Shown: positions 1-57,587 of the stretch, piece by piece
Layout: the number at the start of each line of letters is the position of its first letter
Numbering within the stretch: the first letter of the stretch is position 1
Assembly: GCA_949287595.1 (NCBI GenBank)
Contig: CASEGV010000001.1
Coordinates: 129,982 to 193,981 of the forward strand
Reading direction: 5' to 3'
From: an uncultured Mycoplasmatota bacterium
GTDB lineage: Bacteria > Bacillota_I > Bacilli_A > RF39 > UBA660
DNA length: 64,000 bases
The notes under the pieces: generated by a model
The model's database searches: none
What the model saw: the letters and a program-made list of their open reading frames with translations, nothing else
Told to the model about the DNA's origin: nothing
Program-made: the position numbers and the translations under genes

Positions 1-1594
1 CTCCTTGTTTTACTTTTTGTCCAATTTTTACTTTAGGCTCTGTAAATACGGCGACATCATTTATACTTTGAATAGCCGTACGTCTTAATATTTCAGTTTC
101 AGTTCCATCAGGTAACTCTATTACTACTTTATCGTCAGTAATATTTTTTACTTTTCCTTCTGGATATTGAAATTTCTCATTTAATATATTATCTTTTAAC
201 TCTTCCGATCTACCAGTATCAACTAATGGTCGTTCTGCATTAACTAATGGAATACTTTGTTTTAACATAGAAGTACCCATACTAATACGAACACTATCAG
301 TATAATTTACAAATGGTATTCTTCTAGTAGTTCCAGACAATCTATAGTCAGGATGTAGGTCTATTAATTCTATCTCCTCTACAGGAACCATTCTACGTTT
401 CATTCTATACTTAACTTCTACTTGTCCATCTTTATTAGGTTTTATAGTATTAGTTTCGTAATCTACAAATTCAGATGCACATACTTTATGGTTAAGATAA
501 TCAATATAAGGAATAGTTATTCTCATAAAATTTTTATCATAAACATCAAAAAGTATATCATCATCAGTAATATGGCATGAAACTGTTAATGAATTCTGGA
601 GATTAGTATTATTATTAATAGGCGTATCAGCAATATCTATCAAATCGCTAAATGTAGTATTATATGCTATGCTATCTGGTATAACAATTTTATTAGAAAT
701 TGCTTCTAGATTAATAGAGTTTACTCCAGGAGGAACCTGAATTCCTGTTTCTGCTGTAGAAATATCTTTTGCTCCTTTAAAATATCTGAAACATAAAGTA
801 GTAATAGCAGTAACTTGATCCTGTATTCTCCCATATTTAGTAAAGTATGAATTTATTCTTCTACAAGCAGAGTAATAGTTTCTTCGATTATTATCTCTAA
901 ATAGATATTTCATAAATCCATTAGGTACCGACTCTATAGTTTTATCGATGATTAAATCCTTAAGTCTATCATCTCCAAAAGCCATACAATCCTGAATAAG
1001 CTTTTGAGTTATATACTCAGGTTTATAATCTAGATCCAACTTAATCATTAATTTCTTAGACTGTCTTTCAGTAAGTTTAAGAATATCTTTTTTATCAGTT
1101 TCTAAGGTCTTATCAATATCATCAAAGTGAATATCCATAGCCTTTTCCGAAATTCCTAAATCTGGATTTATTCTAGTTATCTTTAGAATCTTTTTATTTA
1201 TATCATATGTTCTATCATAATCAAATTTTACTGTATATTCTCCAGTACCTGACATACGAATACGACAGTCAAAATCTGCATTCATTTTGTTAGTTGAAAT
1301 ACGATAAGCCCCCTCTATAATAAAAGCTCCATCTATTTCTTTAGGTACCTCAAATTCTGCATATTTTAGTTCATCGTCTTCATTAATGGTATAATTAATT
1401 CTTACTTTATGAGTAGCAGTCAAACCATTTTCTATATAGTAAGAAGCTGGCTGAGGTGGTTCTTCGATAATTTCATAATCCAAAGAAGTAATTTTATTAT
1501 CTGGATTATATTTATCTATATTACTCTGTCTGAAGAACTTATCTACCATTATTTTTACTCCAGTGTTTCTAAAATATTGATTAAAATTACTCAT
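1..1594 (-). CDS. Multisubunit RNA polymerase beta-like subunit, N-terminal 531 codons; gene runs off the left edge
   Basis: Not in the ORF track (no stop in window). My translation from ATG 1594-1592 stays open to nt 1. AFIIEGAYRIS resembles RpoB FIINGAERV. RRIPFVNYTDSVRISMGTSMLKQSIPL aligns with RpoB [25 protein letters not shown]. Confidence 0.8.
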   Translation of the reverse strand, partial: MSNFNQYFRNTGVKIMVDKFFRQSNIDKYNPDNKITSLDYEIIEEPPQPASYYIENGLTATHKVRINYTINEDDELKYAEFEVPKEIDGAFIIEGAYRISTNKMNADFDCRIRMSGTGEYTVKFDYDRTYDINKKILKITRINPDLGISEKAMDIHFDDIDKTLETDKKDILKLTERQSKKLMIKLDLDYKPEYITQKLIQDCMAFGDDRLKDLIIDKTIESVPNGFMKYLFRDNNRRNYYSACRRINSYFTKYGRIQDQVTAITTLCFRYFKGAKDISTAETGIQVPPGVNSINLEAISNKIVIPDSIAYNTTFSDLIDIADTPINNNTNLQNSLTVSCHITDDDILFDVYDKNFMRITIPYIDYLNHKVCASEFVDYETNTIKPNKDGQVEVKYRMKRRMVPVEEIELIDLHPDYRLSGTTRRIPFVNYTDSVRISMGTSMLKQSIPLVNAERPLVDTGRSEELKDNILNEKFQYPEGKVKNITDDKVVIELPDGTETEILRRTAIQSINDVAVFTEPKVKIGQKVKQG

Positions 1595-1965: not shown

Positions 1966-2274
1966 TTAAATATCTGTCAAATTCATCAAATTACCTCCTC
2001 TTCCTTTAGGAGTTTTTGATGTAATAGATTGTTCTCCTACCTTATTTCCTATATTATTAGATAATGAATTTCCACTACCTTCCACGATAGGAGAAATTAC
2101 TTTATCTACTTTTTCTACAGAATTTTCCAATCTACCATTATTTTTTGAAAAAGAGTTATTTGTAGAAGAAGATGAGGTATTATAAATTACCTCACCATCT
2201 CTACGAATAATTAAATTCAAACTTAATTCTTTTTCAAATTCTGGAAGATCTATTTCAAATTTAATAGTTCCCAT
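1966..2274 (-). CDS. Hypothetical S/N-rich protein
   Basis: Track ORF. Its start abuts the beta-prime stop. Low-complexity middle section. Confidence 0.5.
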   Translation of the reverse strand: MGTIKFEIDLPEFEKELSLNLIIRRDGEVIYNTSSSSTNNSFSKNNGRLENSVEKVDKVISPIVEGSGNSLSNNIGNKVGEQSITSKTPKGRGGNLMNLTDI

Positions 2275-3134
2275 TATTTTTTATCATCAAGTTTATTATT
2301 TAACAATAATCCTAATATAGTTTCTGTCATAACATCACCACTAAGATTTAAATCTCCCTTAAGAGCTCTACTAACTACTCTACTAGAATAACCATAAGAT
2401 AACACTGTATAGAATGATTTCTTGTTTAATACACCAGATTGAGTTCCCAAATATTGGATATCTTCAATTTTCTGAGTATTAGTATCCACAATAATATCAG
2501 TTAAACCAGTAAATAATAACTCCACTAATTCCTCCTGAGTTGAATGTAGATCAGTTAATCCAGTAGATGCAAATTTTCCGTCGGTTAATGTATAGAATTG
2601 ATTTCTGAAAATTAAATAAATATCATTTAAATTATTATTCATACCTGGAATCACGTGGTTCATATTAACCACTCCACTGCAGAATCTTTGATATTTCTTT
2701 ATTTCAGTACCATCAGGATAATAATACATACACATTGGATTATAATCATATTGAATATCTCCAATCCATACCTCTATATCACCATCCTTAGTCTCCTTGT
2801 AATGAATCGTCCCCGATTTATAACAGTATGAGTCAGAAACTATAACATTATCTTTTTCAAAGTATCTAGTACCATCAGATCCCTTTGCTCTCATCAATTT
2901 AATAAGTGCATTAAGTTTATAAATAGGAGATGTAGTATTATATGCTGTTCCTATAGTATCTCCCTTTTCAAACTTTTCTTTTCCTACACTTACCCAGTTA
3001 TCAGGTCTTGGATATTTTAATTCTCCACCTCTAACTTTTAAATAAATCCACCTTCCTTCTTCTCTAAATTCGCACTGTTTTGGGGCTTTAAGTATTCCGT
3101 CCATTTGCAAAATACGCTCATGACCCCCATGTTT
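2274..3134 (-). CDS. RNAP beta-prime-like subunit, exon 6 (C-terminal part)
   Basis: Starts KHGGH, completing the trigger-loop motif (bacterial ..TFHxGG). SFYTVLSYGYSSRVVSRAL..GDVMTETILG resembles the beta-prime C-terminal SFISAASFQETTRVLTEAA..LKENVIVG. I read the TTG that opens track ORF 2274..3137 as the intron 3' end (..UUG|AAA). Confidence 0.8.
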   Translation of the reverse strand, partial: KHGGHERILQMDGILKAPKQCEFREEGRWIYLKVRGGELKYPRPDNWVSVGKEKFEKGDTIGTAYNTTSPIYKLNALIKLMRAKGSDGTRYFEKDNVIVSDSYCYKSGTIHYKETKDGDIEVWIGDIQYDYNPMCMYYYPDGTEIKKYQRFCSGVVNMNHVIPGMNNNLNDIYLIFRNQFYTLTDGKFASTGLTDLHSTQEELVELLFTGLTDIIVDTNTQKIEDIQYLGTQSGVLNKKSFYTVLSYGYSSRVVSRALKGDLNLSGDVMTETILGLLLNNKLDDKK

Positions 3135-4151
3135 CAATAAAATTCCTAATATGTTCTATTAGGTTAGACTATATTATCTTCTATAAAAGAAGTACTTACT
3201 GTAGTCGTTGAATATAAGATAAATTACTTTTTTCTCCATCCTTTTTGAGGGAAATGATTAACCCATCTAATCATTGTAGTTCTATGAACTTTAGCAGCTA
3301 TTGCTGCTTCTTCTATAGAGTTATATTCAATTCCATCTGGGGATATTACGGGAATTTTGTGTGCATTAGATAATTTCTCTTTCGTAGATTCTTTTAAATG
3401 TTTTCCAAATAATGGATGATTTTCTCCTCTTAATTTGTCAGACATCTTCTTCCTTGCTTCATCAGTATGATGTTTACCATACATCGGATGATTCTTTCCA
3501 GATAATCCCTTACTTAATGTCTTTTCTCTGAGAATTTGTTTAGTTTTATCAGTGTGATGTCTTCCTTTAAAAAATCCTGGTAATCCTTTTTTCTTTTCAG
3601 AAACTTTTTTCGAAATGTCTGGATTTTTCATAGGATTATTATCTCCTTTCATAAAAATAGATCTTTTATTTTTTATCTCAGATAAAGTATTTAAATCTAT
3701 TTCTAAGCTATTTTCAAAATTAAATCTTAATTCTACTAATAAACTAAAAGACAGAAATAAATCTTTACTATCGGGATTTATAATATATAATAACATATGA
3801 GCTAATATATGTTCTCTATATGTTAGTAATACTAAATTAGATTCATCATTATTTCCTCCCTTACATCTCGGAATTATATGATGTTTTTCAAAGTATCCAT
3901 CTAATTTACTTTTATCTAATCCACGTGTTTTAGCAGAATTTACTAATTGTTTGTAGTGTAATTCTGCTATATCTACATTTTCCTTATAATAATTTATAAT
4001 TTCAATTGTTATAATATCTATAGATTCAATTGATAACATAAATATTTAATAATTAATCCTATAATGCTGATTTTAATATTAATTATTTCCAGCAATTTAA
4101 AGTATTTTTCATTACAAGTCGTCGTTAACCTGTAATGCCTCAAACTTAATT
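3135..4151 (-). mobile_element. Group I intron 1 with HNH homing endonuclease ORF
   Basis: Minus-strand core elements in canonical order: P ATTGCTGGAA (4088-4097), Q AATCAGCAT (4064-4072), R TTCAACGACTA (3202-3212), S AAGATAATATAGTCTAA (3164-3180), then a P9-like hairpin. Exon end GCCUU pairs with intron GAGGC (4137-4141) with a terminal U-G. The intron ends in G. Confidence 0.75.
3224..4039 (-). CDS. Intron-encoded HNH homing endonuclease with NUMOD-like repeats
   Basis: HNH core HHIIPRCKGGNNDESNLVLLTYREHILAH. Repeated G-K/R-HHT/S-xE-x-K-xK motifs (NUMOD3-like) in the C-terminal half. Lies between Q and R of intron 1. Confidence 0.8.
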   Translation of the reverse strand: MLSIESIDIITIEIINYYKENVDIAELHYKQLVNSAKTRGLDKSKLDGYFEKHHIIPRCKGGNNDESNLVLLTYREHILAHMLLYIINPDSKDLFLSFSLLVELRFNFENSLEIDLNTLSEIKNKRSIFMKGDNNPMKNPDISKKVSEKKKGLPGFFKGRHHTDKTKQILREKTLSKGLSGKNHPMYGKHHTDEARKKMSDKLRGENHPLFGKHLKESTKEKLSNAHKIPVISPDGIEYNSIEEAAIAAKVHRTTMIRWVNHFPQKGWRKK

Positions 4152-4487
4152 AAGGCCTAGTGCGCTCTGTGTTGTCCCCTCAGTTAGAGAAGTTGCAAAA
4201 GAGAGTCCAATAGCTGCTCCGTCAGTAAATTTAAATTTCTTTCCAATAAGATCAGGAGTAATAGTATGAGTATCTCCTTTTCTTTTTGTTATGATTGATC
4301 TAACCGGTACCAAATCATCTTCTGAACCGTTTACTAGTGGCTTTTCTGGATATACTTTTCCATTAGGTGCAGTACGTCCTAAAGCTTTGTATCTAGGTAT
4401 CAAAAGACCATCATTTTCAGTATCTTCTCCTTCATGATATACGTAGCTATTTAAAAGGAAAGATATCTGACGAGTTAAATATCCGCT
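4152..4487 (-). CDS. RNAP beta-prime-like subunit, exon 5
   Basis: Begins SGYLTRQISF (bacterial SGYLTRRLVDV) and ends GAAIGLSFATSLTEGTTQSALGL (bacterial [24 protein letters not shown]). The N* in the track ORF after GL is an intron read-through tail. Confidence 0.75.
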
Positions 4488-4922
4488 CGAAGGTCATTCA
4501 AGGATATTAGGCTATAATATAAATTAAAAGCGCTTCCTAAAATCCTATCCTGCCTATGTTTATCACATAGGATTAGACTATATCATGATTAAAATTTATT
4601 TAATCTAACAATATATAGTCGTTGATCTTATTTATTTCTTTTATATCTTTTTTTCGGCTTTGGTAAATATTTTACTTTTTTCTTTTGATTTTCCCTATAT
4701 GCTTTTGTTTCTTGAATTTTTCTATATTCTTCCATTCCACAAAGCATAGTTTTAGCAATTCCTCCAACTACTTTTAAAATTTTTAAAACTTTTTCCAATC
4801 TCGCCATAAAATAGATTTAAAGATTATATAAGTTGCTGATTTTATATTTACATATTCTTTCCAGCATTTAATTGTTATTTTAAGTGGGCTACCATATTCG
4901 AGCTTAATATTTTAACACCACT
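4488..4922 (-). mobile_element. Group I intron 2 (no large ORF); boundaries about +/-10 nt
   Basis: P ATGCTGGAA (4859-4868), Q AATCAGCAA (4832-4840), R TCAACGACTA (4617-4626), S ATCATGATATAGTCTAA (4573-4590), followed by hairpin CCTATGT/ACATAGG. The exon frame is closed by TGA at 4494-4496. I could not find a clean P1 pairing. Confidence 0.6.
4628..4807 (-). CDS. Small basic ORF (59 aa) inside intron 2
   Basis: My translation: MARLEKVLKILKVVGGIAKTMLCGMEEYRKIQETKAYRENQKKKVKYLPKPKKRYKRNK. It is below the ORF-track size cutoff, lies between Q and R, and has no known motif. Confidence 0.25.
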   Translation of the reverse strand: MARLEKVLKILKVVGGIAKTMLCGMEEYRKIQETKAYRENQKKKVKYLPKPKKRYKRNK

Positions 4923-5667
4923 AACCTTAATAGACTGTAAGCTTCGATTTTCTATTGCATGTAACTGATAATCTTTTTCTGTATAACCAGATAACAATGT
5001 TCCACGAGTAATTACAGGTTTTTCATCAACTCCTGAAGTTATAAACTGTGGCATTGACATTGCTACAATAGATGATAATTTAACACGAGCTGCTCTATCA
5101 AGTTCATTTTTCAAATCAGAACTAAAGCTTGCAGAAACTTCATCCTCATATTTCTTAAATTCTTGAGTCATTATCAAAAGTTTCTGTTTATCTGTAAGTT
5201 CTTTAGAATCTGCTACGTTACAAATTCTCTTATAAGTTTCCGTATCACAGTCAGCATATAATGTTTTGTAGTCAAACGTTACTACTCCAGCCATACTAAC
5301 TACGCGAAGAGCAAATTTAGTAAGTGCTTTTCTTTTTTCAACTCCATCTTCAAATTGATTTAAATAAAGACTTAACTTAGCTGCACTCTTAGCGCCAATA
5401 CGTTCAAACTCATTATTAAATATACCAATTTTATCTATATCAGCATCAAGTATTTTAGAAATACGAAGTCTACCATAACTTGTAACTTTAGATTGATAAT
5501 CTACATTTCCTATCTTTCCTGTAAATACAATCGGTGTTCCAACTTTGATTTTCTTTTCTATTTCTACATCCTTTAATAACTGAACATAATCAGTATAAAA
5601 ATATTTAGGATCTTTCAATTCTCCCAAATCAGAGTATGAGTATTCAGTTGCAACTGCTAAACCATTG
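4923..5667 (-). CDS. RNAP beta-prime-like subunit, exon 4
   Basis: Its first nt (C) completes the codon CU|C, giving ..HETL|NGLAVATEY (bacterial QDVVLGLYYMTRD). TSYGRLRISKIL, SMPQFITSGVDEKPVITRG..GYTEKDYQLHAIENRSLQSIKV match beta-prime regions E-F (..[21 protein letters not shown]). Confidence 0.75.
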
Positions 5668-6868
5668 CGTTTTATTTGTATATTTCTATACATAAACAGA
5701 CTATATAATCAACAATATACTCGTTGTTTCACTTATAGTCGTTGAACAGAATTCTTAATTAAATTTATGCTTTAAAATTTCTAAAAATTATACTATATAT
5801 TTATAAATATATAAATTTTTATTAATTTGTTTTTTATGATTTATATGTTTATAAATATCTTTTTCAGTTAATGTAATATATTTAGCATTATTCTCTTTAC
5901 ACCATTTTAATCCAGCAATCCTTTTTGCAATTACTAAACTGTTATTTAATAAATTAAATGCTTTTACTTCTACCATTAACTTTATTCCTGAATCTGTTGT
6001 TATTAAGAAATCTGGATAATAATTATGATTCCCTCCAGAATAATAGTACTGTATAGGTTCAGGTACCTCTACATTTACTATAAACTTGCTATAATCACAT
6101 ATCATTAAGAAATCTCTTTCGTAAGAAGATAAATAATAAATATCCTCTTTACATTTAGTAGATTTATAAATACCAGATTTATAATATGATCTAGACTTAA
6201 CTTTTCCTTTTTTTGACCTAGATATTTTTTTCTTTAGCCTCTTGACTTAAATGAAAATGATAACCCCTAGGTCTTTTTAGTCTCTGTTCTTCTGTAAGCT
6301 TTTTTCCTTTTTTAGATAAACTTATATTCCTCTTATTTTCTTCACTTAAAGGTCTTCCTTTTAGTTTCTTACTAACTAACTCACTTACATGTTTTACTTT
6401 ATGTAAATAACAATAAGCATAATACCCTTTACTTAAAAGAAATTTTGCTTCATTATTACAGAATCTACACTTAGGTCTATCTTCAATTGAAGAAATACCC
6501 AAATAAACTAGATCATAGTATATTTGTTTATTAACATCATCTTTTAAATATTTAGATAATCTAAAAGATGCTACCCACTTATCTTCCCCTAATTTAGAAA
6601 TCCAACTAGGAAGATAATAATAAACTGTTTTATTTTCAATTTTTTTGAAATTTTCTCTTAATCCTTTGGAATTATAAGGATTTATTTTAGAATATTTTTC
6701 ATAAATTTTATCTACTTCATTCATTTATATAAATATTAAATAAATTATATAAAATCTTAAAGCTATAAATTTAATTAAGAAAATTCTGCTGCTGATTAAG
6801 AATAAATTCTATTCCAGCAATAATGTGAAATTTTCAATCTTTAAAAAGATTGCCCCCAATTAATTTCA
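5668..6868 (-). mobile_element. Group I intron 3 with decayed homing endonuclease
   Basis: P ATTGCTGGAA (6812-6821), Q AATCAGCAG (6789-6797), R TTCAACGACTA (5736-5746), S GATTATATAGTCT (5698-5710), and a P9-like hairpin TGTATA-GAAA-TATACA. Exon CCCU pairs with GGGG (6853-6857). The last intron nt is G at 5668. Confidence 0.7.
5788..6724 (-). pseudogene. Frameshift-disrupted NUMOD3 + TnsA-like (PD-(D/E)xK) homing endonuclease
   Basis: ORFs 6218..6724 and 5788..6105 align with the N- and C-terminal halves of the intact 330-aa ORF 7198..8190 (LPSWIS, DRPKC, YYPDF..VEVK, VIAKRI, KYITLTE). They lie in different frames with a gap between them. Confidence 0.65.
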
Positions 6869-7095
6869 AGGGTTTCATGATTAAATTTATAAATAGGTTC
6901 ATTATTCTTTTTATAAATTGTAACATATCTAGGACTCATTCTTTCATAAGTCTCTTCAGCTGCTTCAGGAGGTACTAACTGTATTGATACAGTATCACCA
7001 TCAAAGTCAGCATTTAATGGTTCACATACTTGAATAGGAAAATGTATTGTATAATCCTCATGAATTCTTAACTTCATTGCAAAAGTCGAGTATTC
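6869..7095 (-). CDS. RNAP beta-prime-like subunit, exon 3 (catalytic NADFDGD)
   Basis: EYSTFAMKLRIHEDYTIHFPIQVCEPLNADFDGDTVSIQLVP aligns with bacterial [41 protein letters not shown]. Confidence 0.85.
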
Positions 7096-8309
7096 CAAAT
7101 TTCTTAATTTGTTAAATTAAGTTTAGACTGTATCATTTATTATTAGTACACAGTCGTTGAGTTTATAGAGTAAGTATTATTATATACCTTAATTTTACTA
7201 AACTATATAATCAAAAATACTAAATGATCCATGTATTCTTTTGAATAATTCAATTTCTGTTAAAGTAATGTATTTAAAATTATTTTTTCTACAATATTTC
7301 TTTGCTGTAATTCTTTTTGCAATCACAATAGGATCATTTACTAGATTTTTTGGTTTTATTTCAACAATAATAATCTGTTTGTTATTTAATGTTAATTTAA
7401 AATCTGGTATATACAAACGATCTTTACCAGAATATGTATATGGAATAGCATTTGCAGAATCTATTTCAACTACATCCTTACTAAGATCGCACATTTTCAT
7501 AAATTTTAACTCCCAAGAAGATAAATATCTCATCTCTTTCTGAGATTTATTTGGCTTATAATATCCTTTTCTCCCTCTTTTAGATTTGATATTTATTAAA
7601 GCTCTTTCAGGATCTTTCTCAATTCTCCTCAAAGCTGCTTCTCTCTGTTTATCTTTCCAAGTAATCTTTCTTCCTTTATTAGCTTTAGATAGTTTTCTCC
7701 TAGTCTCTTCAGAAACTACATGAAATTTCTTTTTCCCTTTTTGGGAATTTGAAATTTTTCTTTTTGTTTCTTCTGAATGATGTAATCCCAACTTTGCCTT
7801 TCCTCCTAAATTGTAAGTTCTAAACATTTCGTTAGTTTCTCTAAATTTATACATACATTCACTATTACAATACGTTCTATATCCATAAAATATACCTATA
7901 AATTTAGTATAGTTTCCACATGGACATTTAGGACGATCTTTAGGAGATGATAAACCTAAAATAACTATATCGTAATAGATTTGAGAAGTTATTGAATACT
8001 CTCTTTTCAATTTAGCAGCAAAAATTTTTATTGGATAATAACTATCTTTTGAAGAATTGCTAATCCAACTAGGAAGAAGAATTTTTTTAACCCCGTTATC
8101 TATCTTTATTACTTGACTAAAGTCGATTTTCTTTCCGTTATTAGGGTTCTTACTTGAATAATATTTATATATCTCATTTTCTGTCATCATATTTAAACTA
8201 TTTTAAAGAGATATATAACAATACTTACCTATAAACTGCTGATTTAATACTTTATTATTCCAGCAATTCTCTAACTTTATTAAAGTCTCCACAAATACTC
8301 GTAATCATT
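7096..8309 (-). mobile_element. Group I intron 4 with intact homing endonuclease
   Basis: P ATTGCTGGAA (8259-8268), Q AATCAGCAG (8237-8245), R TCAACGACTG (7151-7160), S AATGATACAGTCTAA (7123-7137), hairpin CTTAATTT/AAATTAAG. 8-bp P1: exon GUCUCCAU with intron GUGGAGAC (8285-8292), terminal U-G. The intron ends ..UUUG. Confidence 0.8.
7198..8190 (-). CDS. Intron-encoded homing endonuclease (NUMOD3-like repeats + TnsA-like PD-(D/E)xK nuclease domain)
   Basis: HHSEETKRKISNSQKGKK and SEETRRKLSKANKGRK repeats. The C-terminal SSWELKFM..YIPDFKL..IIVEIKPKN pattern resembles the TnsA N-terminal endonuclease fold. Confidence 0.6.
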   Translation of the reverse strand: MMTENEIYKYYSSKNPNNGKKIDFSQVIKIDNGVKKILLPSWISNSSKDSYYPIKIFAAKLKREYSITSQIYYDIVILGLSSPKDRPKCPCGNYTKFIGIFYGYRTYCNSECMYKFRETNEMFRTYNLGGKAKLGLHHSEETKRKISNSQKGKKKFHVVSEETRRKLSKANKGRKITWKDKQREAALRRIEKDPERALINIKSKRGRKGYYKPNKSQKEMRYLSSWELKFMKMCDLSKDVVEIDSANAIPYTYSGKDRLYIPDFKLTLNNKQIIIVEIKPKNLVNDPIVIAKRITAKKYCRKNNFKYITLTEIELFKRIHGSFSIFDYIV

Positions 8310-8334
8310 ATGGAGACTCGGTTGACGGTTTACT
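8310..8334 (-). CDS. RNAP beta-prime-like subunit, exon 2: 25-nt micro-exon encoding (L)VNRQPSLH
   Basis: A GTA AAC CGT CAA CCG AGT CTC CAT. This restores QIVL-VNRQPSLH-EYSTFAM against bacterial HPVLLNRAPTLHRLGIQAF. It is flanked by the intron 5 terminal G and the intron 4 P1. Confidence 0.7.
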
Positions 8335-9217
8335 CTGTAGAATGATTATATTCGTCATTATAATCATTCTTTACCAGGATATCTCTATCCTGCAAGACTA
8401 TATTATCAAAAACTAGGTTATCACAACACTAATCTTAGTTTTGTCCATAGTCGTTGAATTGAATTTATTATAAAAGTGGATTCTGTATTAAAAATTCTAA
8501 CTCATTATTATCAGATACTCTAGATTTTAAGAACTCATAAACTTCTTTTCTTACTGATAAGTCTAAGAATTCAGTATATCTAGTTCCATCCTCTGATAAT
8601 TTTGTATAATTTTGAAATTTAACAAATGTATCAAATTCAAGATCGGCTAAATCATTTGTTGGTCCTGATATGATTGCTATAACTTTACCACCTAAGATAT
8701 GATTCAAGTTAGGTAATTGATAATTCAGTCTTCTTTCCCAATTTTTTGAAAAACCAACCTTAATACTCATAGGAAATTTAACAAAGTATAGATAACCTTG
8801 TTCTCCTTGAAATTTATTATGCAGTAAAGTTCTGTTAGCTAGTCTCATATGCCACTCACTACCATATCCTTTACTATTTTTATCTAAAGAATTTGCTAAT
8901 CGTATATTAGCCATTCTTTGTCTTTTTTCTTCGCTAACATTCCACAACCCTATCTTAGAAGTTCCTTTATATCTTCCTTCAGCATGAAGTTGTTTCATGT
9001 GTTCAGATCGATTCCATGGAGTTGTAGAAGATAGTGTAGAAAATAAATTAATCCTAAATATCTTCATAAGCTCTTCTTCTATATTTACTATTCTGCTTTT
9101 ATAATAAATTCAACTGCTGATTATTAATTATAATTAATTTCCAGCAATACACAAAATTAAATAAATGTAAACTACATTTATTTCAGGATTTTCACCTAAC
9201 GTACCAGTGAAAAATCT
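8335..9217 (-). mobile_element. Group I intron 5 with GIY-YIG/T5orf172-like endonuclease ORF
   Basis: P ATTGCTGGAA (9139-9148), Q AATCAGCAG (9114-9122), R TTCAACGACTA (8448-8458), S GATAATATAGTCT (8395-8407), hairpins CAGGATA/TATCCTG and AATGATTATA/TATAATCATT. 6-bp P1: exon CGUACU with GGUACG (9200-9205). The intron ends ..CUACAG. Confidence 0.8.
8468..9067 (-). CDS. Intron-encoded putative homing endonuclease (GIY-YIG/T5orf172-like C-terminal domain)
   Basis: GYLYFVKFPMSIKVGFSKNWERRLNYQ resembles the GIY..YIG/T5orf172 core. Lies between Q and R of intron 5. Confidence 0.45.
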   Translation of the reverse strand: MKIFRINLFSTLSSTTPWNRSEHMKQLHAEGRYKGTSKIGLWNVSEEKRQRMANIRLANSLDKNSKGYGSEWHMRLANRTLLHNKFQGEQGYLYFVKFPMSIKVGFSKNWERRLNYQLPNLNHILGGKVIAIISGPTNDLADLEFDTFVKFQNYTKLSEDGTRYTEFLDLSVRKEVYEFLKSRVSDNNELEFLIQNPLL

Positions 9218-10350
9218 AGTACGATTTGTTTTTCCGCAAATTCTTTAAACATCTTTAAAGTTTCCGGATTATTATACTCTTCTTTTGTTGCTCTGAGAGC
9301 TTCTTCTTTAGTAAAATTTAATTCCTTCATTAAATAGTCTAAGAATCCTTCTCTACACATCTCATATGCAATATGAATAGGTATAGAGATTTCATCAATA
9401 GCTAATGTAGTACTAGGAATAATTGGACATCTAGCAGAGCTTTTTGTTCTTACTGAATAAAGATCACGTGCTAAATTTTCCTTAGAGGTATTTAAAAGTG
9501 CTGTAGCCTCTTTCTTACCTGTATTAAGAAGTGCTCTTAGAAGTGCTGTATATCTAACTTTCTCACCTGGAGTCTTAAATTTAGAAGTTACTTCTGCATA
9601 ATTTAAGTCATTAGATTTAGTATCTTCTACGCAACAAAGTCTAATTATAATAGAATACCAGATACTAAGTTTATGAGATCCCATTATCTTTTTGCCATTT
9701 TTTACACCAAGAGTAAAAGGTCTCATCATAGCTGGCTGTACTAAGTAATACCTATTAATCAACTTTTTATATTCTACGAGACGACCAGGAAAATGTTCTT
9801 CTATAATCTTCATAAGTCCTTCATAAGAACATTTAGATTCATCATCTATAAATTCAGAAATCTTAAGCTCTTTTGTAGTAGGATTATAATCAAACTGACA
9901 AGTATCAAATACTTTAATACCTAATTTCTTTGCTCCTCTCGCACTATAACCATTTCTTCTAAGATCATCCCCGAAGAAATCTAAAACTATTTTGCTTTCT
10001 TTAAATATATCTTCAAATAATTCTTTAAAGATATCAAAGCGCAAATCATTTAAATAATAGAAAGGCAATTCTATTCTGGCAAATCTTCTAAGTCCTTCTT
10101 CTCTAGAAAATACTCTAGCTCCACAATTAGGACAAGGTTCCATAGAAGGTTGTCGAATTTTTCCACAGATACATCTATCTTCCATAGGAGATCCGAATAT
10201 TTCGACATCATATACTCCACCGGAGATAGGTTGTATACCGTTATACTTTAAGTCTAAGTCTCTATGATTATAGAGAACTCTATCCTTTCCATCACTTTTA
10301 GTATAATCGATGATTGCTTCATCGGTTAGTAACTCAAGAGATACTGACAT
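9218..10350 (-). CDS. RNAP beta-prime-like subunit, exon 1 (N-terminal, Zn ribbon)
   Basis: GGVYDVEIFGSPMEDRCICGKIRQPSMEPCPNCGARVFSREEGLRRFARIELP aligns with the beta-prime N-terminal Zn-binding region (GLF..IFGP..DYEC.CGKYK..C..CGVEV..RRERMGHI). The exon ends ..QIV-CU. Confidence 0.8.
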
Positions 10351-10367
10351 AAAATAAATTTAAAAAA

Positions 10368-11465
10368 TTAATTAGATTTAACTATTTCTGAAACATCTTT
10401 CCAAATAATCTTAGTAGCTAGTTCAGAATCATTAGAATTTTCTTTAGACCATTCTTTATAAACTTGCTTTACATCTGCTATTGCATCAGAACGCGTTTTA
10501 TCTTTTAATCTTTCAAAAATTCCAGAATCTTTATCTACTACTACTTCAATTAAATCTGAAATAACATCTTGTGTAATAGCTCTAGAAGTATTAGTGAATC
10601 TTCCTCTGTATTCTCGATAAACTAATACATCATCATAAGTAAGATCTAGATCAGAATATTCTGAAGAAGATCGAATTTCAGCTGGTTCTTTATTAAACCA
10701 GGATAATTGTAATTTTCTTACTCTATCCGCTACTTGCTGTCTTCCCATCTCTTCATACTTCTTAGCTAGTTCTTCTACAATATCATACTTAGCTTTCATT
10801 ATCTTTCTTAAAGCTTCTTTAATCTGAGTATCATATTCTTTTGGCATTGTAGGACAATCTAATATCAAGTCATACATTCCAGAAGAAAATAGAAATATTA
10901 TAAAAGCAGGAATTTGTCTTTGCTTTCTTCTTCTAGATACAACAGAATCTTTAGAAAGATCTCTATTAGCTAAGAAATCTATAAATCTAGCAATTTGATT
11001 TCTGGCTTCCTCAGCATATGCTTTATTAAATCCAGAATCATCCTCATCTCTAAAGTCAATATCAACATCTTCACCTCTTAACATAGTATCAGGTGTATAG
11101 AGTGAATTGACCATTCTAGAGTGACCTTGCTTATGAAATAGATCTTTAATGATATTTCCAATAGTAGTAATTGATGTGTGCTTTGGATTAGCTTGAACTA
11201 TAGTAGTTACTGCATCTTCTATAGCATTACTAGTATCTTTTTTTCCAGCAGCAATAATATCATCGTATGCAGTAGATAACCAAATTTCATCTTTAGTCAT
11301 CTTACCCTGATACTGTGATTCATCTACTTTTTCTCTAGCTTCCTCCGCATCTTCAAGGCTAATACCAGAATCATCATTATTGTCAGAATCATCGTCATTG
11401 TCTTGCCCGAGATATCCTTGGTTTTCCAAGTCTTCCTCTTCATCTAACAAAAATTCGTCTTCCAT
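10368..11465 (-). CDS. Hypothetical protein with a strongly acidic N-terminus, directly upstream of beta-prime
   Basis: Track ORF. D/E-rich first ~60 aa. No catalytic motif recognised. Confidence 0.6.
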   Translation of the reverse strand: MEDEFLLDEEEDLENQGYLGQDNDDDSDNNDDSGISLEDAEEAREKVDESQYQGKMTKDEIWLSTAYDDIIAAGKKDTSNAIEDAVTTIVQANPKHTSITTIGNIIKDLFHKQGHSRMVNSLYTPDTMLRGEDVDIDFRDEDDSGFNKAYAEEARNQIARFIDFLANRDLSKDSVVSRRRKQRQIPAFIIFLFSSGMYDLILDCPTMPKEYDTQIKEALRKIMKAKYDIVEELAKKYEEMGRQQVADRVRKLQLSWFNKEPAEIRSSSEYSDLDLTYDDVLVYREYRGRFTNTSRAITQDVISDLIEVVVDKDSGIFERLKDKTRSDAIADVKQVYKEWSKENSNDSELATKIIWKDVSEIVKSN

Positions 11466-16221: not shown

Positions 16222-17277
16222 TTAATTTAAACGACCTTCATCGATTAATTTTTCCGCAATTTTAAGATAACTGATTGAATTATAGAATTCACTATCACTA
16301 CCATTTCCACCTAACTTAATGAATGATTTTGGAAAGTGTTTTTCTATTTCTTTATTTAAAATCTCATCATCTTTCATTTTATTAAAGAAATAAGCAAGAC
16401 CTCCACAAACTAATATTCCTTCAATGGAATCTAGTGATTCACTAAATTTTTCTTCTAATAGTTTAATTACATTAATAAGATATTCTCTAGTAAATTCTAT
16501 TACTTTATCTGAAATATCATATTCTCTCATTCTTCGTGTGAATAAGCCATTATTATCTAATACAGTCTGACCTTCTTTTACACTCATCTTCATCTCAAAA
16601 TTCTGGAATAAATAATCTATAATTTTATATACTATACAGATAACCCCAGTATTAGCTAATCCTATAGCAGCACCAGCAGAAGATTTTCCATCAAGAACTT
16701 GTGCAGCGTCAATACTTAAAAATCCTCCATCAACTATTAAGTAATTTCGCATTTTAACATCGTTCTTCTTAGATACTTCTCTCAAATCCAACCCAAATTG
16801 TTGATAAGCAAGTTTACAACTCAATCCTTGAGGAAGACATAAAAAGAAATTATCTTTAGTAATATTCAATGATTCATATAAATGATCTAATAAATCTGAA
16901 GCTTTATCACTAAATGCTAAAGATAAACCTAGAATTACATGATCAAATCTATCTAACCAATTATCACCACCATATCTTTTCAATAAATAAGAAAGCCAAA
17001 TAGGATAAGTAGCTTTCATATCTTCATACGTCTCTAATCTATATAATAAAGATCTAGGAACTTTAAGTGCTGGAGTTCCTAAAACATAATACTCACCATT
17101 TAAACAAAATATAGTATCATCATTAGGATCTTCTACTAAATCCTTTCCCCCCAATTTAGCTGCTGCGCTTATAAATTTCTCGAATTGAAGAACTCCATTT
17201 TCATCATAAAAACTTGTCTTCAGAGAACTATATCCATAATCTAATGCTAGTAATTTCTTTTGATTATCTTTTCCCAT
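16222..17277 (-). CDS. Actin-like ATPase (ParM/Alp-like)
   Basis: Phosphate-1 LALDYGYSSLKTS, phosphate-2 LIVDGGFLSIDA and adenosine-like ILVCGGLAYFF motifs, in the order and spacing of the actin/Hsp70 fold. Confidence 0.6.
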   Translation of the reverse strand: MGKDNQKKLLALDYGYSSLKTSFYDENGVLQFEKFISAAAKLGGKDLVEDPNDDTIFCLNGEYYVLGTPALKVPRSLLYRLETYEDMKATYPIWLSYLLKRYGGDNWLDRFDHVILGLSLAFSDKASDLLDHLYESLNITKDNFFLCLPQGLSCKLAYQQFGLDLREVSKKNDVKMRNYLIVDGGFLSIDAAQVLDGKSSAGAAIGLANTGVICIVYKIIDYLFQNFEMKMSVKEGQTVLDNNGLFTRRMREYDISDKVIEFTREYLINVIKLLEEKFSESLDSIEGILVCGGLAYFFNKMKDDEILNKEIEKHFPKSFIKLGGNGSDSEFYNSISYLKIAEKLIDEGRLN

Positions 17278-23659: not shown

Positions 23660-25285
23660 TTATTTAATTAAATTATCTTCGTTTTTATCTTCTTCATCTA
23701 CAACTGTACAATCAATTAATAATATCATAGATGCAGCAGATACACTATTTTCGAGTGCTACTCTTAATGCTTTAGAAGAATCTAAAACACCTTCTTCCTC
23801 AAGATTACAATACTTCTTTGTTTTTGCATTGAAACCTACACCAGGTTTAGATGTTTTAATCTTTTCTAATACTACATCAGGAGATACTCCACAATTTTCT
23901 ACTACGGATTTCATAATAATTGGCAATGATTCTTGAAGAATTTTTGCTCCTTCAATCTCATCATCAACTAATGTTTTCCAGAACTCCTTATCTTTAGCCA
24001 ATTCAAGTGATGCTTTGAAATAAGTATATCCAGATCCGAGAGAACAACCTTCTGCCAAAGCACTCTTAGATGCCAAAATAGCATCTTCAACAGTTGCTTT
24101 AAGGTTTGCCCTTTCAATTTCACTAGCAGAACCAACTTTAATTAATCCAATACCTCCAGCTAATTGAGATAATCTAGAGCTATATTTCTTCTTATCGTAA
24201 TCACTAATGTCAGGATCAGAAATTCGATTTTTCAAAGTTTCAATTCTTTCACTAATAACACTCTTATCTCCATTTCCTTCATAGATAATACAAGAATCTC
24301 TAGATACAACAACTTTATTTGCTGTACCAAAATCCTCTAATGTAGCCTGATTAATTGAAATTCCATTTTCTGGATCCAAATATGTTCCACCAGTAAATAC
24401 TGCTAAATCAGCCATAATATTTTTTCTATTATCTCCAAAGTCTACTCCTTTAACTACACAACAACGAATATTTCCTTGAAGAGTATTAAGAATAAAAATA
24501 CCATTTACTTGATCAGACATATCATTACATACAATCAAGAAAGGCCGTCCACTTTTACACAAAGGCTCAATAATAGGACCTACTTGATTAAAATTACTAA
24601 TATTTTCTCCAACTACTATAATGTATGGATTCTCCATTACACATTTTGCATCAGATGGACTATTTACATACTGTGGACTAGACCATCCTTTAGTAAGTTT
24701 AAATCCTTGAACAATATCAATAGTCGTATCAATACCAGAAGAATAATCTGCTTGAATTTCTGCATCAGTTCCGATTTTTTCCATACATGACACTATTAGA
24801 TCTCCAATAGTAGAATCATTGTTAGCAGAAATTGTTGCTACCTTATGAATTTTATTAAGATCACCATCTACCTTAATAGAGTTCTTAGCAATATAGTTAG
24901 TAACCCATTTCTGAGCTTTCTTCATACCATCCTTAATTTCATTTACATTAGCTCCAGTACGAATTGCTTTTTGACCTTTAATCACCATTTCTTCAATAAG
25001 AGCTACTGTAGTTGAGGTTGAATCACCAGCTTGATCTTCAGTACTTGCAGCTGCTTTACGAACAATTTGAGCTCCAATATTTTCTTCTTGATCTTTAAAA
25101 GATATAGATTTACTAACAATACTACCATCTCGAGAAATTTCGGGACCAGTCATACTATTAGCAATTACTACATGTTTTCCTGCAGGACCAATAGTTGTTT
25201 TTACTGCATCTGCAATCTTTATAACACCACTAATTACTTTCTCACGTGATTCAGCTCCTTTAATAATTTTTTTTCCTTCTGCCAT
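23660..25285 (-). CDS. groEL: Chaperonin GroEL (Cpn60) homologue
   Basis: ADAVKTTIGPAGKHVVI, VATISANNDSTIGDLI and GGIGLIKVGSASEIE..LKATVEDAILASKSALAEG align with canonical GroEL segments. Length 541 aa. Confidence 0.9.
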   Translation of the reverse strand: MAEGKKIIKGAESREKVISGVIKIADAVKTTIGPAGKHVVIANSMTGPEISRDGSIVSKSISFKDQEENIGAQIVRKAAASTEDQAGDSTSTTVALIEEMVIKGQKAIRTGANVNEIKDGMKKAQKWVTNYIAKNSIKVDGDLNKIHKVATISANNDSTIGDLIVSCMEKIGTDAEIQADYSSGIDTTIDIVQGFKLTKGWSSPQYVNSPSDAKCVMENPYIIVVGENISNFNQVGPIIEPLCKSGRPFLIVCNDMSDQVNGIFILNTLQGNIRCCVVKGVDFGDNRKNIMADLAVFTGGTYLDPENGISINQATLEDFGTANKVVVSRDSCIIYEGNGDKSVISERIETLKNRISDPDISDYDKKKYSSRLSQLAGGIGLIKVGSASEIERANLKATVEDAILASKSALAEGCSLGSGYTYFKASLELAKDKEFWKTLVDDEIEGAKILQESLPIIMKSVVENCGVSPDVVLEKIKTSKPGVGFNAKTKKYCNLEEEGVLDSSKALRVALENSVSAASMILLIDCTVVDEEDKNEDNLIK

Positions 25286-38485: not shown

Positions 38486-38510
38486 AATATAGTTAAATAG
38501 ATAGCATATA

Positions 38511-38559
38511 ACCTTAGAGAGAATATAGTTTGATTTATATGAATCTCTAAGGTTTTTTC
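38511..38559 (+). terminator. Rho-independent terminator
   Basis: ACCTTAGAGA-(23 nt)-TCTCTAAGGT followed by TTTTTT. Confidence 0.55.
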
Positions 38560-38589
38560 ATTAAGAACAATTTAAAAAAATTTAAAATT

Positions 38590-57561: not shown

Positions 57562-57587
57562 TGAACTTATTTAAATAATAATATAAT

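What the first reader, a model, noticed from the sequence alone, without database searches (positions are those of the whole stretch)
2274..10350. RNAP beta-prime gene split into six exons by five group I introns
Six minus-strand ORF fragments carry consecutive beta-prime landmarks in order:
- Zn ribbon CICGK..CPNCG (9218-10350)
- VNRQPSLH (8310-8334)
- NADFDGD (6869-7095)
- ..HAIENRSLQSIKV (4923-5667)
- SGYLTRQ through trigger-loop TEGTTQSALGL (4152-4487)
- KHGG.. through C-terminal SYGYSSRVVSRAL (2274-3134)

Each gap contains matches to the classical group I core elements, in canonical 5'-3' order on the minus strand: P (ATTGCTGGAA), Q (AATCAGCAG), R (TTCAACGACTA) and S (ATATAGTCT). Each also has a hairpin after S, a U as the last exon nucleotide and a G as the last intron nucleotide.

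For four introns an internal guide pairs with the exon end through a terminal U-G wobble, for example exon GUCUCCAU with intron GUGGAGAC.

With my junctions the exons sum to 3327 nt (1108 codons plus stop), in frame. The junction peptides restore conserved motifs: QIVL|VNRQPSLH|EYSTFAMKL, HETL|NGLAVAT and ALGL|KHGG.

Every insertion site lies inside a catalytic or otherwise highly conserved motif, as expected for homing. Introns in phage RNAP genes are known (Bacillus phage AR9), but five in one gene is extreme.
Basis: partly seen in the sequence, partly recalled or inferred. Interest (0 to 1): 0.85.

Follow-up and report, generated by a model that had tools for sequence, protein, structure and literature searches.

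The report
Five self-splicing introns in phage RNAP gene
The RNA polymerase beta-prime gene of an uncultured, AT-rich jumbo phage is cut into six pieces by five mobile group I introns; this is real, with one splice junction corrected, but it is a strong example of something already reported in gut jumbo phages rather than a new kind of element.

Summary
Six minus-strand exons between 10350 and 2274 join into one ORF that is a genuine RNAP beta-prime.

Junction 4 is misplaced: it deletes five residues (SGVPS) that every homologue has. The correct boundaries are exon 4 = 5667-4915 and exon 5 = 4494-4152. This gives 3342 nt and 1113 aa, with a better P1 helix.

All five gaps carry group I cores, each with its ORF in the P6 loop. 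Near-identical strains have ORF-less copies of introns 2 and 3, or lack intron 2 exactly at the predicted junction. The intron-2-less allele is flanked by a tract of purely synonymous differences, as homing would leave. An ORF-less allele of intron 3 scores 48.6 bits (E = 1e-11) against Rfam Intron_gpI.

"Five is extreme" does not hold. Related 220-400 kb viral contigs carry up to about 14 intron cores in the same gene. Heavy group I intron load has been published for "Jug" gut jumbo phages and for crAss-like phages.

No RNA data exist for this locus. Intron 2 lacks P8.

The parts
9218..10350 (-). Exon 1 of beta-prime (aa 1-377 plus 2 nt), with the Zn-ribbon CICGK..CPNCG
   Evidence: ORF. Aligns with uninterrupted homologues. 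Aligns with the N-terminus of solved beta-prime structures.
8335..9217 (-). Intron 1 (883 nt). P 9148-9139, Q 9122-9114, R 8458-8448, S 8403-8395. P1 is CGUACU/GGUACG.
   Evidence: nhmmer hits to both halves. Occupied at the same site in many relatives.
8468..9067 (-). Intron-1 ORF, 199 aa, endonuclease-like, in the P6 loop
   Evidence: phrog_681 'endonuclease', E = 1.3e-7. No Pfam hit.
8310..8334 (-). Exon 2, a 25-nt micro-exon encoding (L)VNRQPSLH
   Evidence: Contiguous with exon 3 in L003 and L004.
7096..8309 (-). Intron 2 (1214 nt). P 8267-8258, Q 8244-8236, R 7161-7151, S 7133-7125. P1 is 10 bp and P10 is 9 bp. No P8 helix.
   Evidence: Absent in L003/L004 and ORF-less (278 nt) in L002. 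The L002 copy scores 20.8 bits against RF00028.
7198..8190 (-). Intron-2 ORF, 330 aa: NUMOD3 plus TnsA-like (PD-(D/E)xK) endonuclease
   Evidence: Pfam PF07460 and PF08722. phrog_15427 'endonuclease'.
6869..7095 (-). Exon 3 (EYSTFAMKL ... NADFDGD ... NHET)
   Evidence: Pfam RNA_pol_Rpb1_2. Alignment.
5668..6868 (-). Intron 3 (1201 nt). P 6821-6812, Q 6797-6789, R 5746-5736, S 5706-5698.
   Evidence: The 185-nt ORF-less allele in L003 scores 48.6 bits, E = 1.3e-11, against RF00028 over the full model.
5788..6724 (-). Intron-3 endonuclease gene, broken into two ORFs (6724-6218, 168 aa; 6105-5788, 105 aa with the TnsA-like domain). Probably a decaying homologue of the intron-2 endonuclease.
   Evidence: The N-terminal similarity to the intron-2 ORF is seen by eye. 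The whole segment is deleted in L002-L004.
4915..5667 (-). Exon 4, corrected 3' end (reader: 4923). Ends ...IKVSGV.
Evidence: Corrected product.
4495..4914 (-). Intron 4, corrected (420 nt). P 4866-4859, Q 4841-4833, R 4626-4616, S 4583-4575. P1 is AGUGG(U)GU/GCCCACU.
   Evidence: The same site is occupied in close relatives.
4628..4807 (-). Intron-4 small ORF (59 aa) in the P6 loop, function unknown
   Evidence: No Pfam or PHROG hit. Called as a gene in L001-L004.
4152..4494 (-). Exon 5, corrected 5' end (reader: 4487). PSSGYLTRQ (bridge helix) through the trigger-loop start TEGTTQSALGL.
3135..4151 (-). Intron 5 (1017 nt). P 4096-4087, Q 4072-4064, R 3212-3202, S 3174-3166. P1 is GCCUU/GAGGC.
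3224..4039 (-). Intron-5 ORF, 271 aa: HNH plus NUMOD3 homing endonuclease
   Evidence: Pfam PF01844 and PF07460. phrog_655 'homing endonuclease', E = 7e-32.
2274..3134 (-). Exon 6 (KHGGHE ... C-terminus, stop at 2274-2276)

Best explanation
The region holds one gene for the beta-prime subunit of a phage multisubunit RNA polymerase (1113 aa). It is interrupted by five group I introns of a single family.

Proposed mechanism:
- After transcription, each intron folds into the P1-P9 ribozyme core, with its ORF looped out of P6.
- Each intron excises itself by the two-step, guanosine-initiated transesterification. The 5' splice site is set by a U-G pair in P1. The 3' splice site is set by the terminal G and by P10.
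- The six exons, including a 25-nt micro-exon, are joined into an intact reading frame.

The introns are, or were, mobile.
- Introns 1, 2 and 5 carry intact endonuclease genes.
- Intron 3 carries a decayed one.
- Intron 4 carries only a 59-aa ORF.
- These introns spread between co-infecting relatives by homing into conserved stretches of the gene.

Shown by sequence and comparison: the exon structure, the group I core, and the presence/absence polymorphism with a flanking conversion tract.

Inferred only: splicing itself, and endonuclease activity.
For: 1. Joined product.
- It is one ORF.
- It aligns end to end with 37 uninterrupted homologues of 1113-1158 aa.
- With junction 4 corrected, there is no indel at any junction.
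- It is a beta-prime: Pfam 68.6 bits; the family profile against solved structures gives E = 3.8e-41 over profile positions 283-878.

2. Alleles in sister strains.
- Contigs from other samples encode an identical exon 1 but differ in intron content.
- L003 and L004 lack intron 2 exactly at the predicted junction and encode the same protein.
- L002-L004 carry ORF-less versions of intron 3 (248 and 185 nt). L002 carries an ORF-less intron 2 (278 nt).

3. Conversion tract.
- Window and L003 differ at 25 positions in 3342 nt, all synonymous.
- Twenty-three of them cluster in the last 10 nt of exon 2 and in exon 3, on either side of the intron-2 site.
- Exons 1, 4 and 5 are identical.

4. Group I identity.
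- RF00028 scores 48.6 bits, E = 1.3e-11, full-length, on the 185-nt allele of intron 3.
- It scores 60.6 bits on a relative's intron.
- R occurs five times, only in the gaps.
- nhmmer profiles built only from 70 relatives' mini-introns hit the window solely in the gaps. The 3' half hits 5 of 5, with E from 5e-10 to 8e-5. The 5' half hits 4 of 5.
- Unconstrained folds of the ORF-excised cores give P4/P5, P6, P7 and P9 in four of the five introns and the expected hairpins, though not P7, in intron 4. P8 folds in introns 1, 3, 4 and 5, and P2 in introns 1, 3 and 5.

5. Family covariation across 72 mini-introns.
- 83% of cells are paired; covariation score 0.384 against 0.119 in shuffles (0 of 500 reach it), and at most 0.205 when partners are slid.
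- In P6, the four outer pairs never fail to pair and show several pair types.
- One P4 pair switches between G-C (43 sequences) and A-U (26).

6. Endonuclease ORFs lie in the P6 loops.

7. Published metatranscriptomes confirm splicing of many such introns in Jug gut jumbo phages (PMC12880540).
Against: - There is no RNA evidence for this locus.
- Rfam finds nothing in the window itself, at gathering or E-value thresholds. The best ORF-less allele is just under the gathering score (48.6 against 50).
- Intron 2 has no P8 helix. Only about 5 nt (AAUAA) plus a conserved J8/7 (AUGAU) separate P3' from P7'. Whether it can splice unaided is uncertain.
- P1 of intron 3 is only 4 bp, and P1 of intron 4 needs a bulge.
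- The nhmmer 5'-half profile missed intron 3.
Confidence: 0.9

Rival explanations
1. The gene is truly fragmented. The pieces are translated separately and assemble into a split beta-prime, as in cyanobacterial gamma/beta-prime or phiKZ/AR9-type split subunits, without RNA splicing.
For: Split beta-prime subunits exist in nature (established knowledge). Gene callers report each fragment as an ORF.
Against: - A 25-nt exon cannot be a polypeptide.
- The breaks fall within codons at three junctions.
- The fragment ORFs begin inside introns, some at TTG codons, and end in read-through tails.
- Sister strains carry the same coding sequence uninterrupted at site 2.
- Thirty-seven homologues are single polypeptides.
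- Every gap holds a group I core.
Confidence: 0.03
2. The locus is a decaying pseudogene in a defective phage. The introns are relics that no longer splice.
For: The intron-3 endonuclease is broken. Intron 2 lacks P8. There is no RNA evidence.
Against: - The exons are intact, with no internal stops.
- All 25 differences from L003 are synonymous, which indicates purifying selection.
- The same arrangement recurs on 12 contigs from several samples.
- Ribozyme cores are conserved and covary across the family.
Confidence: 0.03
3. Most of the introns self-splice, but intron 2 (P8-less) and possibly others are not autonomous. They would need a protein cofactor or help from the other, similar introns. 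Alternatively they splice poorly and so throttle RNAP production.
For: - P8 is missing in intron 2 and in several relatives' mini-introns at other sites.
- Many organellar group I introns need maturases (established knowledge).
- Only 37 of 76 predicted Jug introns had read support.
Against: - P8-less copies recur at several independent sites within an essential gene whose exons stay intact. This argues that they are removed efficiently.
- Intron 2 has the strongest P1 and P10 of the five (10 and 9 bp).
Confidence: 0.2
4. The arrangement is an assembly artefact or a chimera of metagenomic strains.
For: The source is metagenomic, and strain mixtures with differing intron content exist.
Against: An identical 8.2-kb arrangement was assembled independently in another run (L001, 100% identity). 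Variant alleles are internally consistent on long contigs of 45-166 kb.
Confidence: 0.01

Closest known systems
Group I introns of Jug (jumbo gut) phages (Sci Adv 2026, PMC12880540)
   Same: - Uncultured AT-rich (27-30% GC) jumbo phages with genomes of 360-402 kb.
- 2513 group I introns in 136 of 139 genomes, about 18.5 per genome and about 206 nt on average.
- HNH, PD-(D/E)xK and GIY-YIG endonucleases; essential genes fragmented.
- Splicing supported by metatranscriptomes for 37 of 76 predicted introns.
- The window (28.3% GC) and its IMG/VR relatives (29% GC, contigs up to 401 kb) fit this description.
   Different: - The main text of the paper describes terL, nrdD and DNA polymerase, not the beta-prime gene. 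It uses RpoC only as a marker.
- I could not compare sequences with the curated Jug genomes, so membership is not shown.
- The per-gene load, the micro-exon, the allele series and the P8-less cores come from this analysis.
PhiPA3 gp210 intron in a jumbo-phage RNAP subunit gene (Science 2024, PMC11620839)
   Same: A group I intron with an HNH homing endonuclease interrupts an RNAP gene of a jumbo phage. The endonuclease targets the intron-less allele of a co-infecting relative (abstract seen).
   Different: That case is one intron in a Pseudomonas nucleus-forming phage with split RNAP subunits. Here there are five introns in an unsplit 1113-aa beta-prime of an unrelated lineage; the best tblastn identity to deposited phages is about 24%. 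No competition data exist here.
Bacillus phage AR9 RNAP-gene introns (Lavysh et al. 2016; from my own knowledge, cited in the reference list seen)
   Same: Group I introns interrupt genes for beta/beta-prime-like subunits of a jumbo phage.
   Different: Single introns in separate genes and a different host phylum. No DNA similarity to any phage in the collection searched.
crAss-like phages of the Zeta and Delta groups (Nat Commun 2021, PMC7886860)
   Same: Gut phages with a high density of group I introns and inteins in core genes. There are up to 14 introns per genome, and an MCP gene split into five fragments.
   Different: A different phage order with a different RNAP type. The per-gene counts reported there are lower than five. 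Those phages also recode stop codons, which is not needed to read this gene.
Classical phage group I introns with the endonuclease ORF looped out of a peripheral helix (T4 td/nrdB/sunY, SPO1, Twort orf142 with three introns; from my own knowledge)
   Same: P1 with a U-G pair, a terminal G, the ORF in a peripheral loop (P6 here), insertion at conserved sites of essential genes, and co-conversion of flanking exon sequence.
   Different: - The cores here have no extra helices between P3' and P8. That is unlike the subgroup IA2 introns of T4 and Twort as I recall them; I did not test subgroup assignment.
- Their P/Q/R/S elements match the classical consensus closely.
- ORF-less forms are very small (185 nt measured), and some lack P8.

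Membership tests
Group I intron (Rfam RF00028 Intron_gpI) | 5' splice site defined by a U-G wobble pair in P1, formed with an internal guide sequence | tested here: met
   All five have U at -1 paired to G. P1 is 6, 10, 4 and 5 bp for introns 1, 2, 3 and 5, and 7 bp with one bulge for corrected intron 4 (plus hand pairing on that sequence).
Group I intron (Rfam RF00028 Intron_gpI) | Terminal G at the 3' end of the intron, and P10 pairing with the 3' exon | tested here: met
   G is the last base in all five. P10 is 3, 9, 4 and 4 bp for introns 1, 2, 3 and 5. For intron 4 it is 3 bp, offset by one base (by hand).
Group I intron (Rfam RF00028 Intron_gpI) | Conserved core: the P4-P6 and P3-P7-P8 domains, with P/Q/R/S elements and the G-binding P7 | tested here: inconclusive
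   - P/Q/R/S are present in order in all five.
- P4/P5, P6 and P9 come out of unconstrained folds in all five, and P7 in four of five.
- P3, P4, P6 and P7 covary across 72 family members.
- Intron 2 has no P8, so the full core is met for four of five.
Group I intron (Rfam RF00028 Intron_gpI) | Covariance-model score at or above the curated gathering threshold (50 bits) | tested here: not met
   - Window copies: no hit at gathering or at E <= 10. Each has a 184-1041-nt insert in P6.
- ORF-less alleles: 48.6 bits (E = 1.3e-11), 20.8 and 19.5 bits.
- One relative's intron reaches 60.6 bits.
- The test fails formally for the window, but for an understood reason.
Group I intron (Rfam RF00028 Intron_gpI) | Guanosine-dependent self-splicing | not testable with these tools
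   Needs in vitro transcription and a GTP splicing assay, or RNA-seq.
Mobile (homing) intron | Intron-encoded homing endonuclease | tested here: met
   - Intron 5: HNH + NUMOD3.
- Intron 2: NUMOD3 + TnsA-like nuclease.
- Intron 1: phrog_681 endonuclease.
- Intron 3: the same type as intron 2, but broken.
- Intron 4: none recognisable.
Mobile (homing) intron | Presence/absence polymorphism at the same site, with co-conversion of flanking exon sequence | tested here: met
   Intron 2 is present with ORF, ORF-less, or absent among strains with identical exon 1. Of 25 synonymous differences, 23 cluster around its site.
Mobile (homing) intron | Endonuclease cleaves the intron-less allele | not testable with these tools
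   Needs a cleavage assay on the L003 target (CCTTCATTACAT|GAGTATAGTAC).
Multisubunit RNAP beta-prime subunit | Double-psi beta-barrel with NADFDGD, plus the Zn ribbon, bridge helix and trigger loop in order | tested here: met
   Pfam PF00623 at 68.6 bits. The profile matches beta-prime structures at E = 3.8e-41, aligned through NADFDGD, SGYLTR and TQ..L..H.GG. The Zn-ribbon segment aligns.
Jug (jumbo gut) phage clade | Genome of 360-402 kb, 27-30% GC, dense group I introns | tested here: inconclusive
   The window has 28.3% GC. Contigs carrying this exact gene reach only 166 kb. Relatives at 92% exon-1 identity sit on contigs of up to 401 kb with 29% GC. Intron density is met.
Jug (jumbo gut) phage clade | Sequence identity to curated Jug genomes (at least 90% nucleotide identity in the authors' recruitment) | not testable with these tools
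   No Jug sequences are on hand. No supplementary files are held. The GenBank phage collection has no near match.

The most novel reading that the evidence does not exclude
This phage lineage carries a family of minimal group I ribozymes. ORF-less forms are about 185 nt where measured exactly, and 150-200 nt by rough estimate. Several of them, including intron 2 of this window, have dispensed with helix P8 and still splice.

The family has saturated the beta-prime gene. There are 5 introns here and up to about 14 cores, with micro-exons of about 25-30 nt, in relatives. The endonuclease-bearing copies may act as weapons between co-infecting jumbo phages.

If P8-less copies splice on their own, they would be a natural minimal core of interest for ribozyme structure and engineering.
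Probability: 0.35. Interest if true: 0.7.

Novelty: new member of a known kind. Interest (0 to 1): 0.5.

Why it matters
The introns are group I introns with homing endonucleases, which is textbook. Heavy intron load in gut jumbo phages and crAss-like phages is published. So the kind of element is known.

The locus still adds three things.
- It gives an unusually clean natural allele series. The same gene occurs, in otherwise near-identical genomes, with an intron carrying its endonuclease, with the intron stripped of it, and with no intron at all. A synonymous conversion tract marks the event. That is close to a snapshot of the homing cycle of invasion, endonuclease decay and loss.
- It shows that the RNAP genes are a hot spot. 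Five introns here and up to about 14 cores in relatives exceed the per-gene counts I found in the literature for phages.
- It has practical consequences. Gene callers split this gene into many fragments, so beta-prime-based phylogeny and annotation of such phages will fail unless introns are removed. The correct 1113-aa product is given here.

The P8-less mini-introns may be worth testing as minimal ribozymes.

Tried and rejected
- Rfam on the whole window at gathering threshold, and on 2000-10600 at E <= 10, gave no Intron_gpI hit. I do not take this as evidence against introns, because ORF-less alleles of the same introns are hit.
- Rfam at gathering on six related loci (148 kb) gave only one hit. 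The AT-rich mini-introns mostly score below 50 bits.
- Megablast against 50,697 GenBank phage records gave no match. tblastn gave at best about 24% identity. There is therefore no named close relative.
- The scan of bacterial and archaeal genomes returned only cellular rpoC genes at 21-32% identity. This gave no clue to the host and no link to MAGs.
- A literature search for P8-less group I introns returned nothing relevant. Absence from that search is not proof of novelty.
- A regex for an uninterrupted IKxSGxPxSGYLTRQ in loci L001-L034 found none. A looser search showed that the close relatives all carry an intron at this same site, while L005 and L027 do not. The support for corrected junction 4 therefore comes from the uninterrupted proteins.
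- I considered inteins. They are rejected because the inserts are out of frame, contain stop codons and carry ribozyme cores.
- I considered group II introns. No domain V/VI-like features and no reverse transcriptase ORF were seen, and the cores match group I.
- TGCTGGAA also occurs five times around 57399-58425. No Q, R or S elements accompany it, so it is not an intron.
- tblastn-derived gap sizes and positions in relatives are approximate, because micro-exons are missed. For that reason I counted R/S cores instead.

Full report
**What is there**

On the minus strand between 10350 and 2274 there are six coding segments separated by five non-coding or ORF-bearing gaps.

The joined protein matches Pfam RNA_pol_Rpb1_2 at 68.6 bits, against 28.4 bits for exon 3 alone. 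It aligns with solved bacterial beta-prime structures straight across junctions 1, 2 and 3: QIVLVNRQPSLHEYSTFAMKL against [20 protein letters not shown], and HETLNGLAVAT against RDIILGLYYIT.

A profile of the family matches beta-prime structures at E = 3.8e-41 over profile positions 283-878. That stretch includes NADFDGD, the bridge-helix SGYLTR motif and the trigger-loop TQ..L..H.GG motif. The product is therefore a genuine, unsplit beta-prime.

**Test of the junctions**

A search of the large protein collection found 37 uninterrupted homologues of 1113-1158 aa at 55-72% identity and 100% coverage. In an alignment with 12 of them, junctions 1, 2, 3 and 5 show no indel.

Junction 4 does show one.
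- The correct boundaries are exon 4 = 5667-4915, intron 4 = 4914-4495 and exon 5 = 4494-4152.
- The product is then 3342 nt = 1113 aa, the commonest length among the homologues. Its sequence around the junction is identical to P0001.
- The corrected site keeps U at -1 and G as the last intron base.
- By hand pairing on the sequence, exon AGUGG(U)GU pairs with guide GCCCACU. The U-G pair falls at the splice site and there is one bulged base.
- In a relative the bulged base differs (A instead of U) while the helix is kept.

**Group I identity**

*Sequence elements in the window*
- The R element TCAACGACT occurs exactly five times in 64 kb, all on the minus strand, one per gap. About 0.15 per strand is expected.
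- P, Q and S flank it in canonical order.
- P1 and P10 are 6/3, 10/9, 4/4 and 5/4 bp for introns 1, 2, 3 and 5.
- In each intron a helix that starts right after Q pairs with the sequence right before R. This is P6, and the ORF lies in its loop.
- After the loop is excised, unconstrained folding gives P4/P5, P6 and P9 in all five introns. It gives P7 in four of five, P8 in introns 1, 3, 4 and 5, and P2 in introns 1, 3 and 5.

*Covariance and profile models*
- Rfam finds nothing in the window itself.
- The explanation is the 184-1041-nt insert in P6. The 185-nt ORF-less allele of intron 3, found in a sister strain, matches Intron_gpI over the whole model at 48.6 bits, E = 1.3e-11. The gathering score is 50.
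- ORF-less alleles of introns 2 and 3 in another strain score about 20 bits. One relative's intron scores 60.6 bits.
- nhmmer profiles built only from 70 mini-introns of more distant relatives hit the window exclusively in the five gaps. The 3' half hits 5 of 5, with E from 5e-10 to 8e-5. The 5' half hits 4 of 5.

*Covariation across 72 distinct mini-introns of the family*
- P3, P4, P6 and P7 are paired in 83% of cells.
- The covariation score is 0.384, against 0.119 in shuffles (0 of 500 reach it) and at most 0.205 when partners are slid.
- The four outer pairs of P6 never fail to pair and show several pair types. One P4 pair switches between G-C (43 sequences) and A-U (26).

**Natural alleles**

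The exact exon-1 protein is encoded on 12 contigs from several samples. One of them, L001, is identical to the window over 8.2 kb, which rules out an assembly artefact.
- L002 has a 278-nt ORF-less intron 2 and a 248-nt ORF-less intron 3.
- L003 and L004 have no intron 2 at all and a 185-nt intron 3.
- In L003 and L004, exon 2 and exon 3 are contiguous exactly at the predicted junction and encode the same peptide. The DNA around the site differs at many synonymous positions: CCTTCATTACAT|GAGTATAGTACTTTC against CCGAGTCTCCAT|GAATACTCGACTTTT.

Over the whole coding sequence, the window and L003 differ at 25 positions, all synonymous. Twenty-three lie in the last 10 nt of exon 2 and in exon 3, thinning out away from the intron-2 site. 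Exons 1, 4 and 5 (2229 nt) are identical.

This is what co-conversion during homing from a diverged donor produces. The intron-less version also cannot pair with the intron's guide sequence. It may be resistant to the endonuclease, but that is inference.

**Endonucleases**
- Intron 5 encodes an HNH + NUMOD3 protein (phrog_655, E = 7e-32).
- Intron 2 encodes a NUMOD3 + TnsA-like nuclease.
- Intron 1 encodes a protein matching phrog_681, 'endonuclease'.
- Intron 3 encodes a relative of the intron-2 protein, broken into 168-aa and 105-aa ORFs. This fits the ORF-less alleles found elsewhere.
- Intron 4 holds only a 59-aa ORF with no match.

**Context and relatives**

The window is 28.3% GC and carries no tRNA gene. 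It encodes a chaperonin, a flotillin-like protein, an actin-like partition protein, tail-fibre features and a 2708-aa ORF. No GenBank phage is close, and no bacterial genome carries a close copy.

IMG/VR holds many relatives on contigs of 220-401 kb, with 92% identity in exon 1 and 29% GC. In these contigs the same gene spans up to 10 kb and contains 7-14 R/S core signatures. L024 has 14, L009 has 13 and L016 has 12. Most are ORF-less mini-introns at additional sites, separated in places by micro-exons. The counts are motif-based, so they are approximate.

Five introns is therefore not extreme within this lineage.

**Literature**
- They were reported to carry 2513 group I introns in 136 of 139 genomes, about 206 nt on average, which split terL, nrdD and DNA polymerase. 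Metatranscriptomes supported 37 of 76 predicted introns (PMC12880540).
- The main text does not describe the beta-prime gene as interrupted.
- crAss-like Zeta phages have up to 14 introns per genome and an MCP gene in five fragments (PMC7886860).
- A homing endonuclease in an RNAP-gene intron of phage PhiPA3 mediates competition between co-infecting jumbo phages (PMC11620839).
- The window probably belongs to, or lies near, the Jug clade. I could not test this by sequence.

**Unusual points**
- Intron 2 has no P8. Between P3' and P7' there are only about 5 nt plus a J8/7 that matches the family consensus.
- The same reduction recurs in mini-introns at several other sites in relatives. It therefore looks like a tolerated variant rather than damage, but whether such copies self-splice is unknown.
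- The 25-nt exon 2 serves both as P10 partner of intron 1 (first 3 nt) and as P1 partner of intron 2 (last 10 nt), without overlap.

**Verdict**

Confidence that these are five group I introns removed at the RNA level is 0.9. Splicing and endonuclease activity remain inferred.

This is a new and well-documented member of a known kind. Interest is moderate, for the allele series, the per-gene load in the lineage and the P8-less cores.

Noticed in passing
window 1-1594 (minus strand, gene runs off the window start); L003:18822-19019; L002:19302-20264; L004:16530-19718: The next RNAP gene downstream is the beta subunit (PF00562). It is also polymorphic for an intron, just outside the window. It is intact at 1062 aa in L004. 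In L001 and L003 it is split as 776 + 294 aa by an ORF-less mini-intron. In L002 it is split by an intron holding a 320-aa ORF.
   Followed up: partly
L006-L034 (IMG/VR contigs of 220-401 kb), e.g. L024:10001-20006: Relatives carry 7-14 group I core signatures inside the same beta-prime gene, and up to 18 on the plus strand of a 24-kb locus. Insertion sites include about aa 36, 72, 379, 403, 425, 441, 451, 466, 598, 633, 669, 713, 833, 898 and 909.
   Followed up: partly
window 7096-7165 (intron 2, 3' part); also L006:13802-13967, L006:14089-14254, L006:21151-21304, L008:9368-9526: Intron 2 and several mini-introns at other sites lack helix P8. P3' is followed after about 5 nt by the conserved J8/7 and then P7'. 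I found no literature on natural P8-less group I introns in one search.
   Followed up: partly
window 4628-4807 (-): A 59-aa lysine-rich ORF sits in the P6 loop of intron 4. It has no Pfam or PHROG match and is called as a gene in all four sister contigs. A different small ORF sits in the intron at the neighbouring site (about aa 719) in L028.
   Followed up: no
window 5788-6724 (-): The intron-3 endonuclease gene is broken into two ORFs near an A-rich run around 6200-6220. It looks like a decaying copy of the intron-2 endonuclease. I did not examine whether a frameshift could restore it.
   Followed up: no
L002:12047-12324: The ORF-less intron 2 of L002 is not a simple deletion of the window's ORF. 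Its P6 region holds about 100 nt of unrelated, more GC-rich sequence (GGGGTTACAGTAGACTAG...), which the window copy lacks.
   Followed up: no
window 57399-58425: TGCTGGAA, the P-element word, occurs five times here, four on the plus strand, in and just upstream of the 671-aa tail-fibre-like ORF (Peptidase_S74 chaperone domain). No Q, R or S elements accompany it. It probably reflects a coding repeat, not introns.
   Followed up: no
window 16222-17277, 23660-25285, 32917-34425, 36959-40320, 48003-56129: Other genes of note: an actin/ParM-like 'partition protein', a GroEL-type chaperonin, an SPFH/flotillin protein, an AAA_5 + VWA (CoxE-like) pair, and a 2708-aa ORF. All are consistent with a jumbo phage.
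   Followed up: no
L005:1-2207: In a more distant relative (60% beta-prime identity, 318-kb contig) the anaerobic ribonucleotide reductase gene nrdD, next to the RNAP genes, is also split (453 + 263 aa). This is as reported for Jug phages.
   Followed up: no
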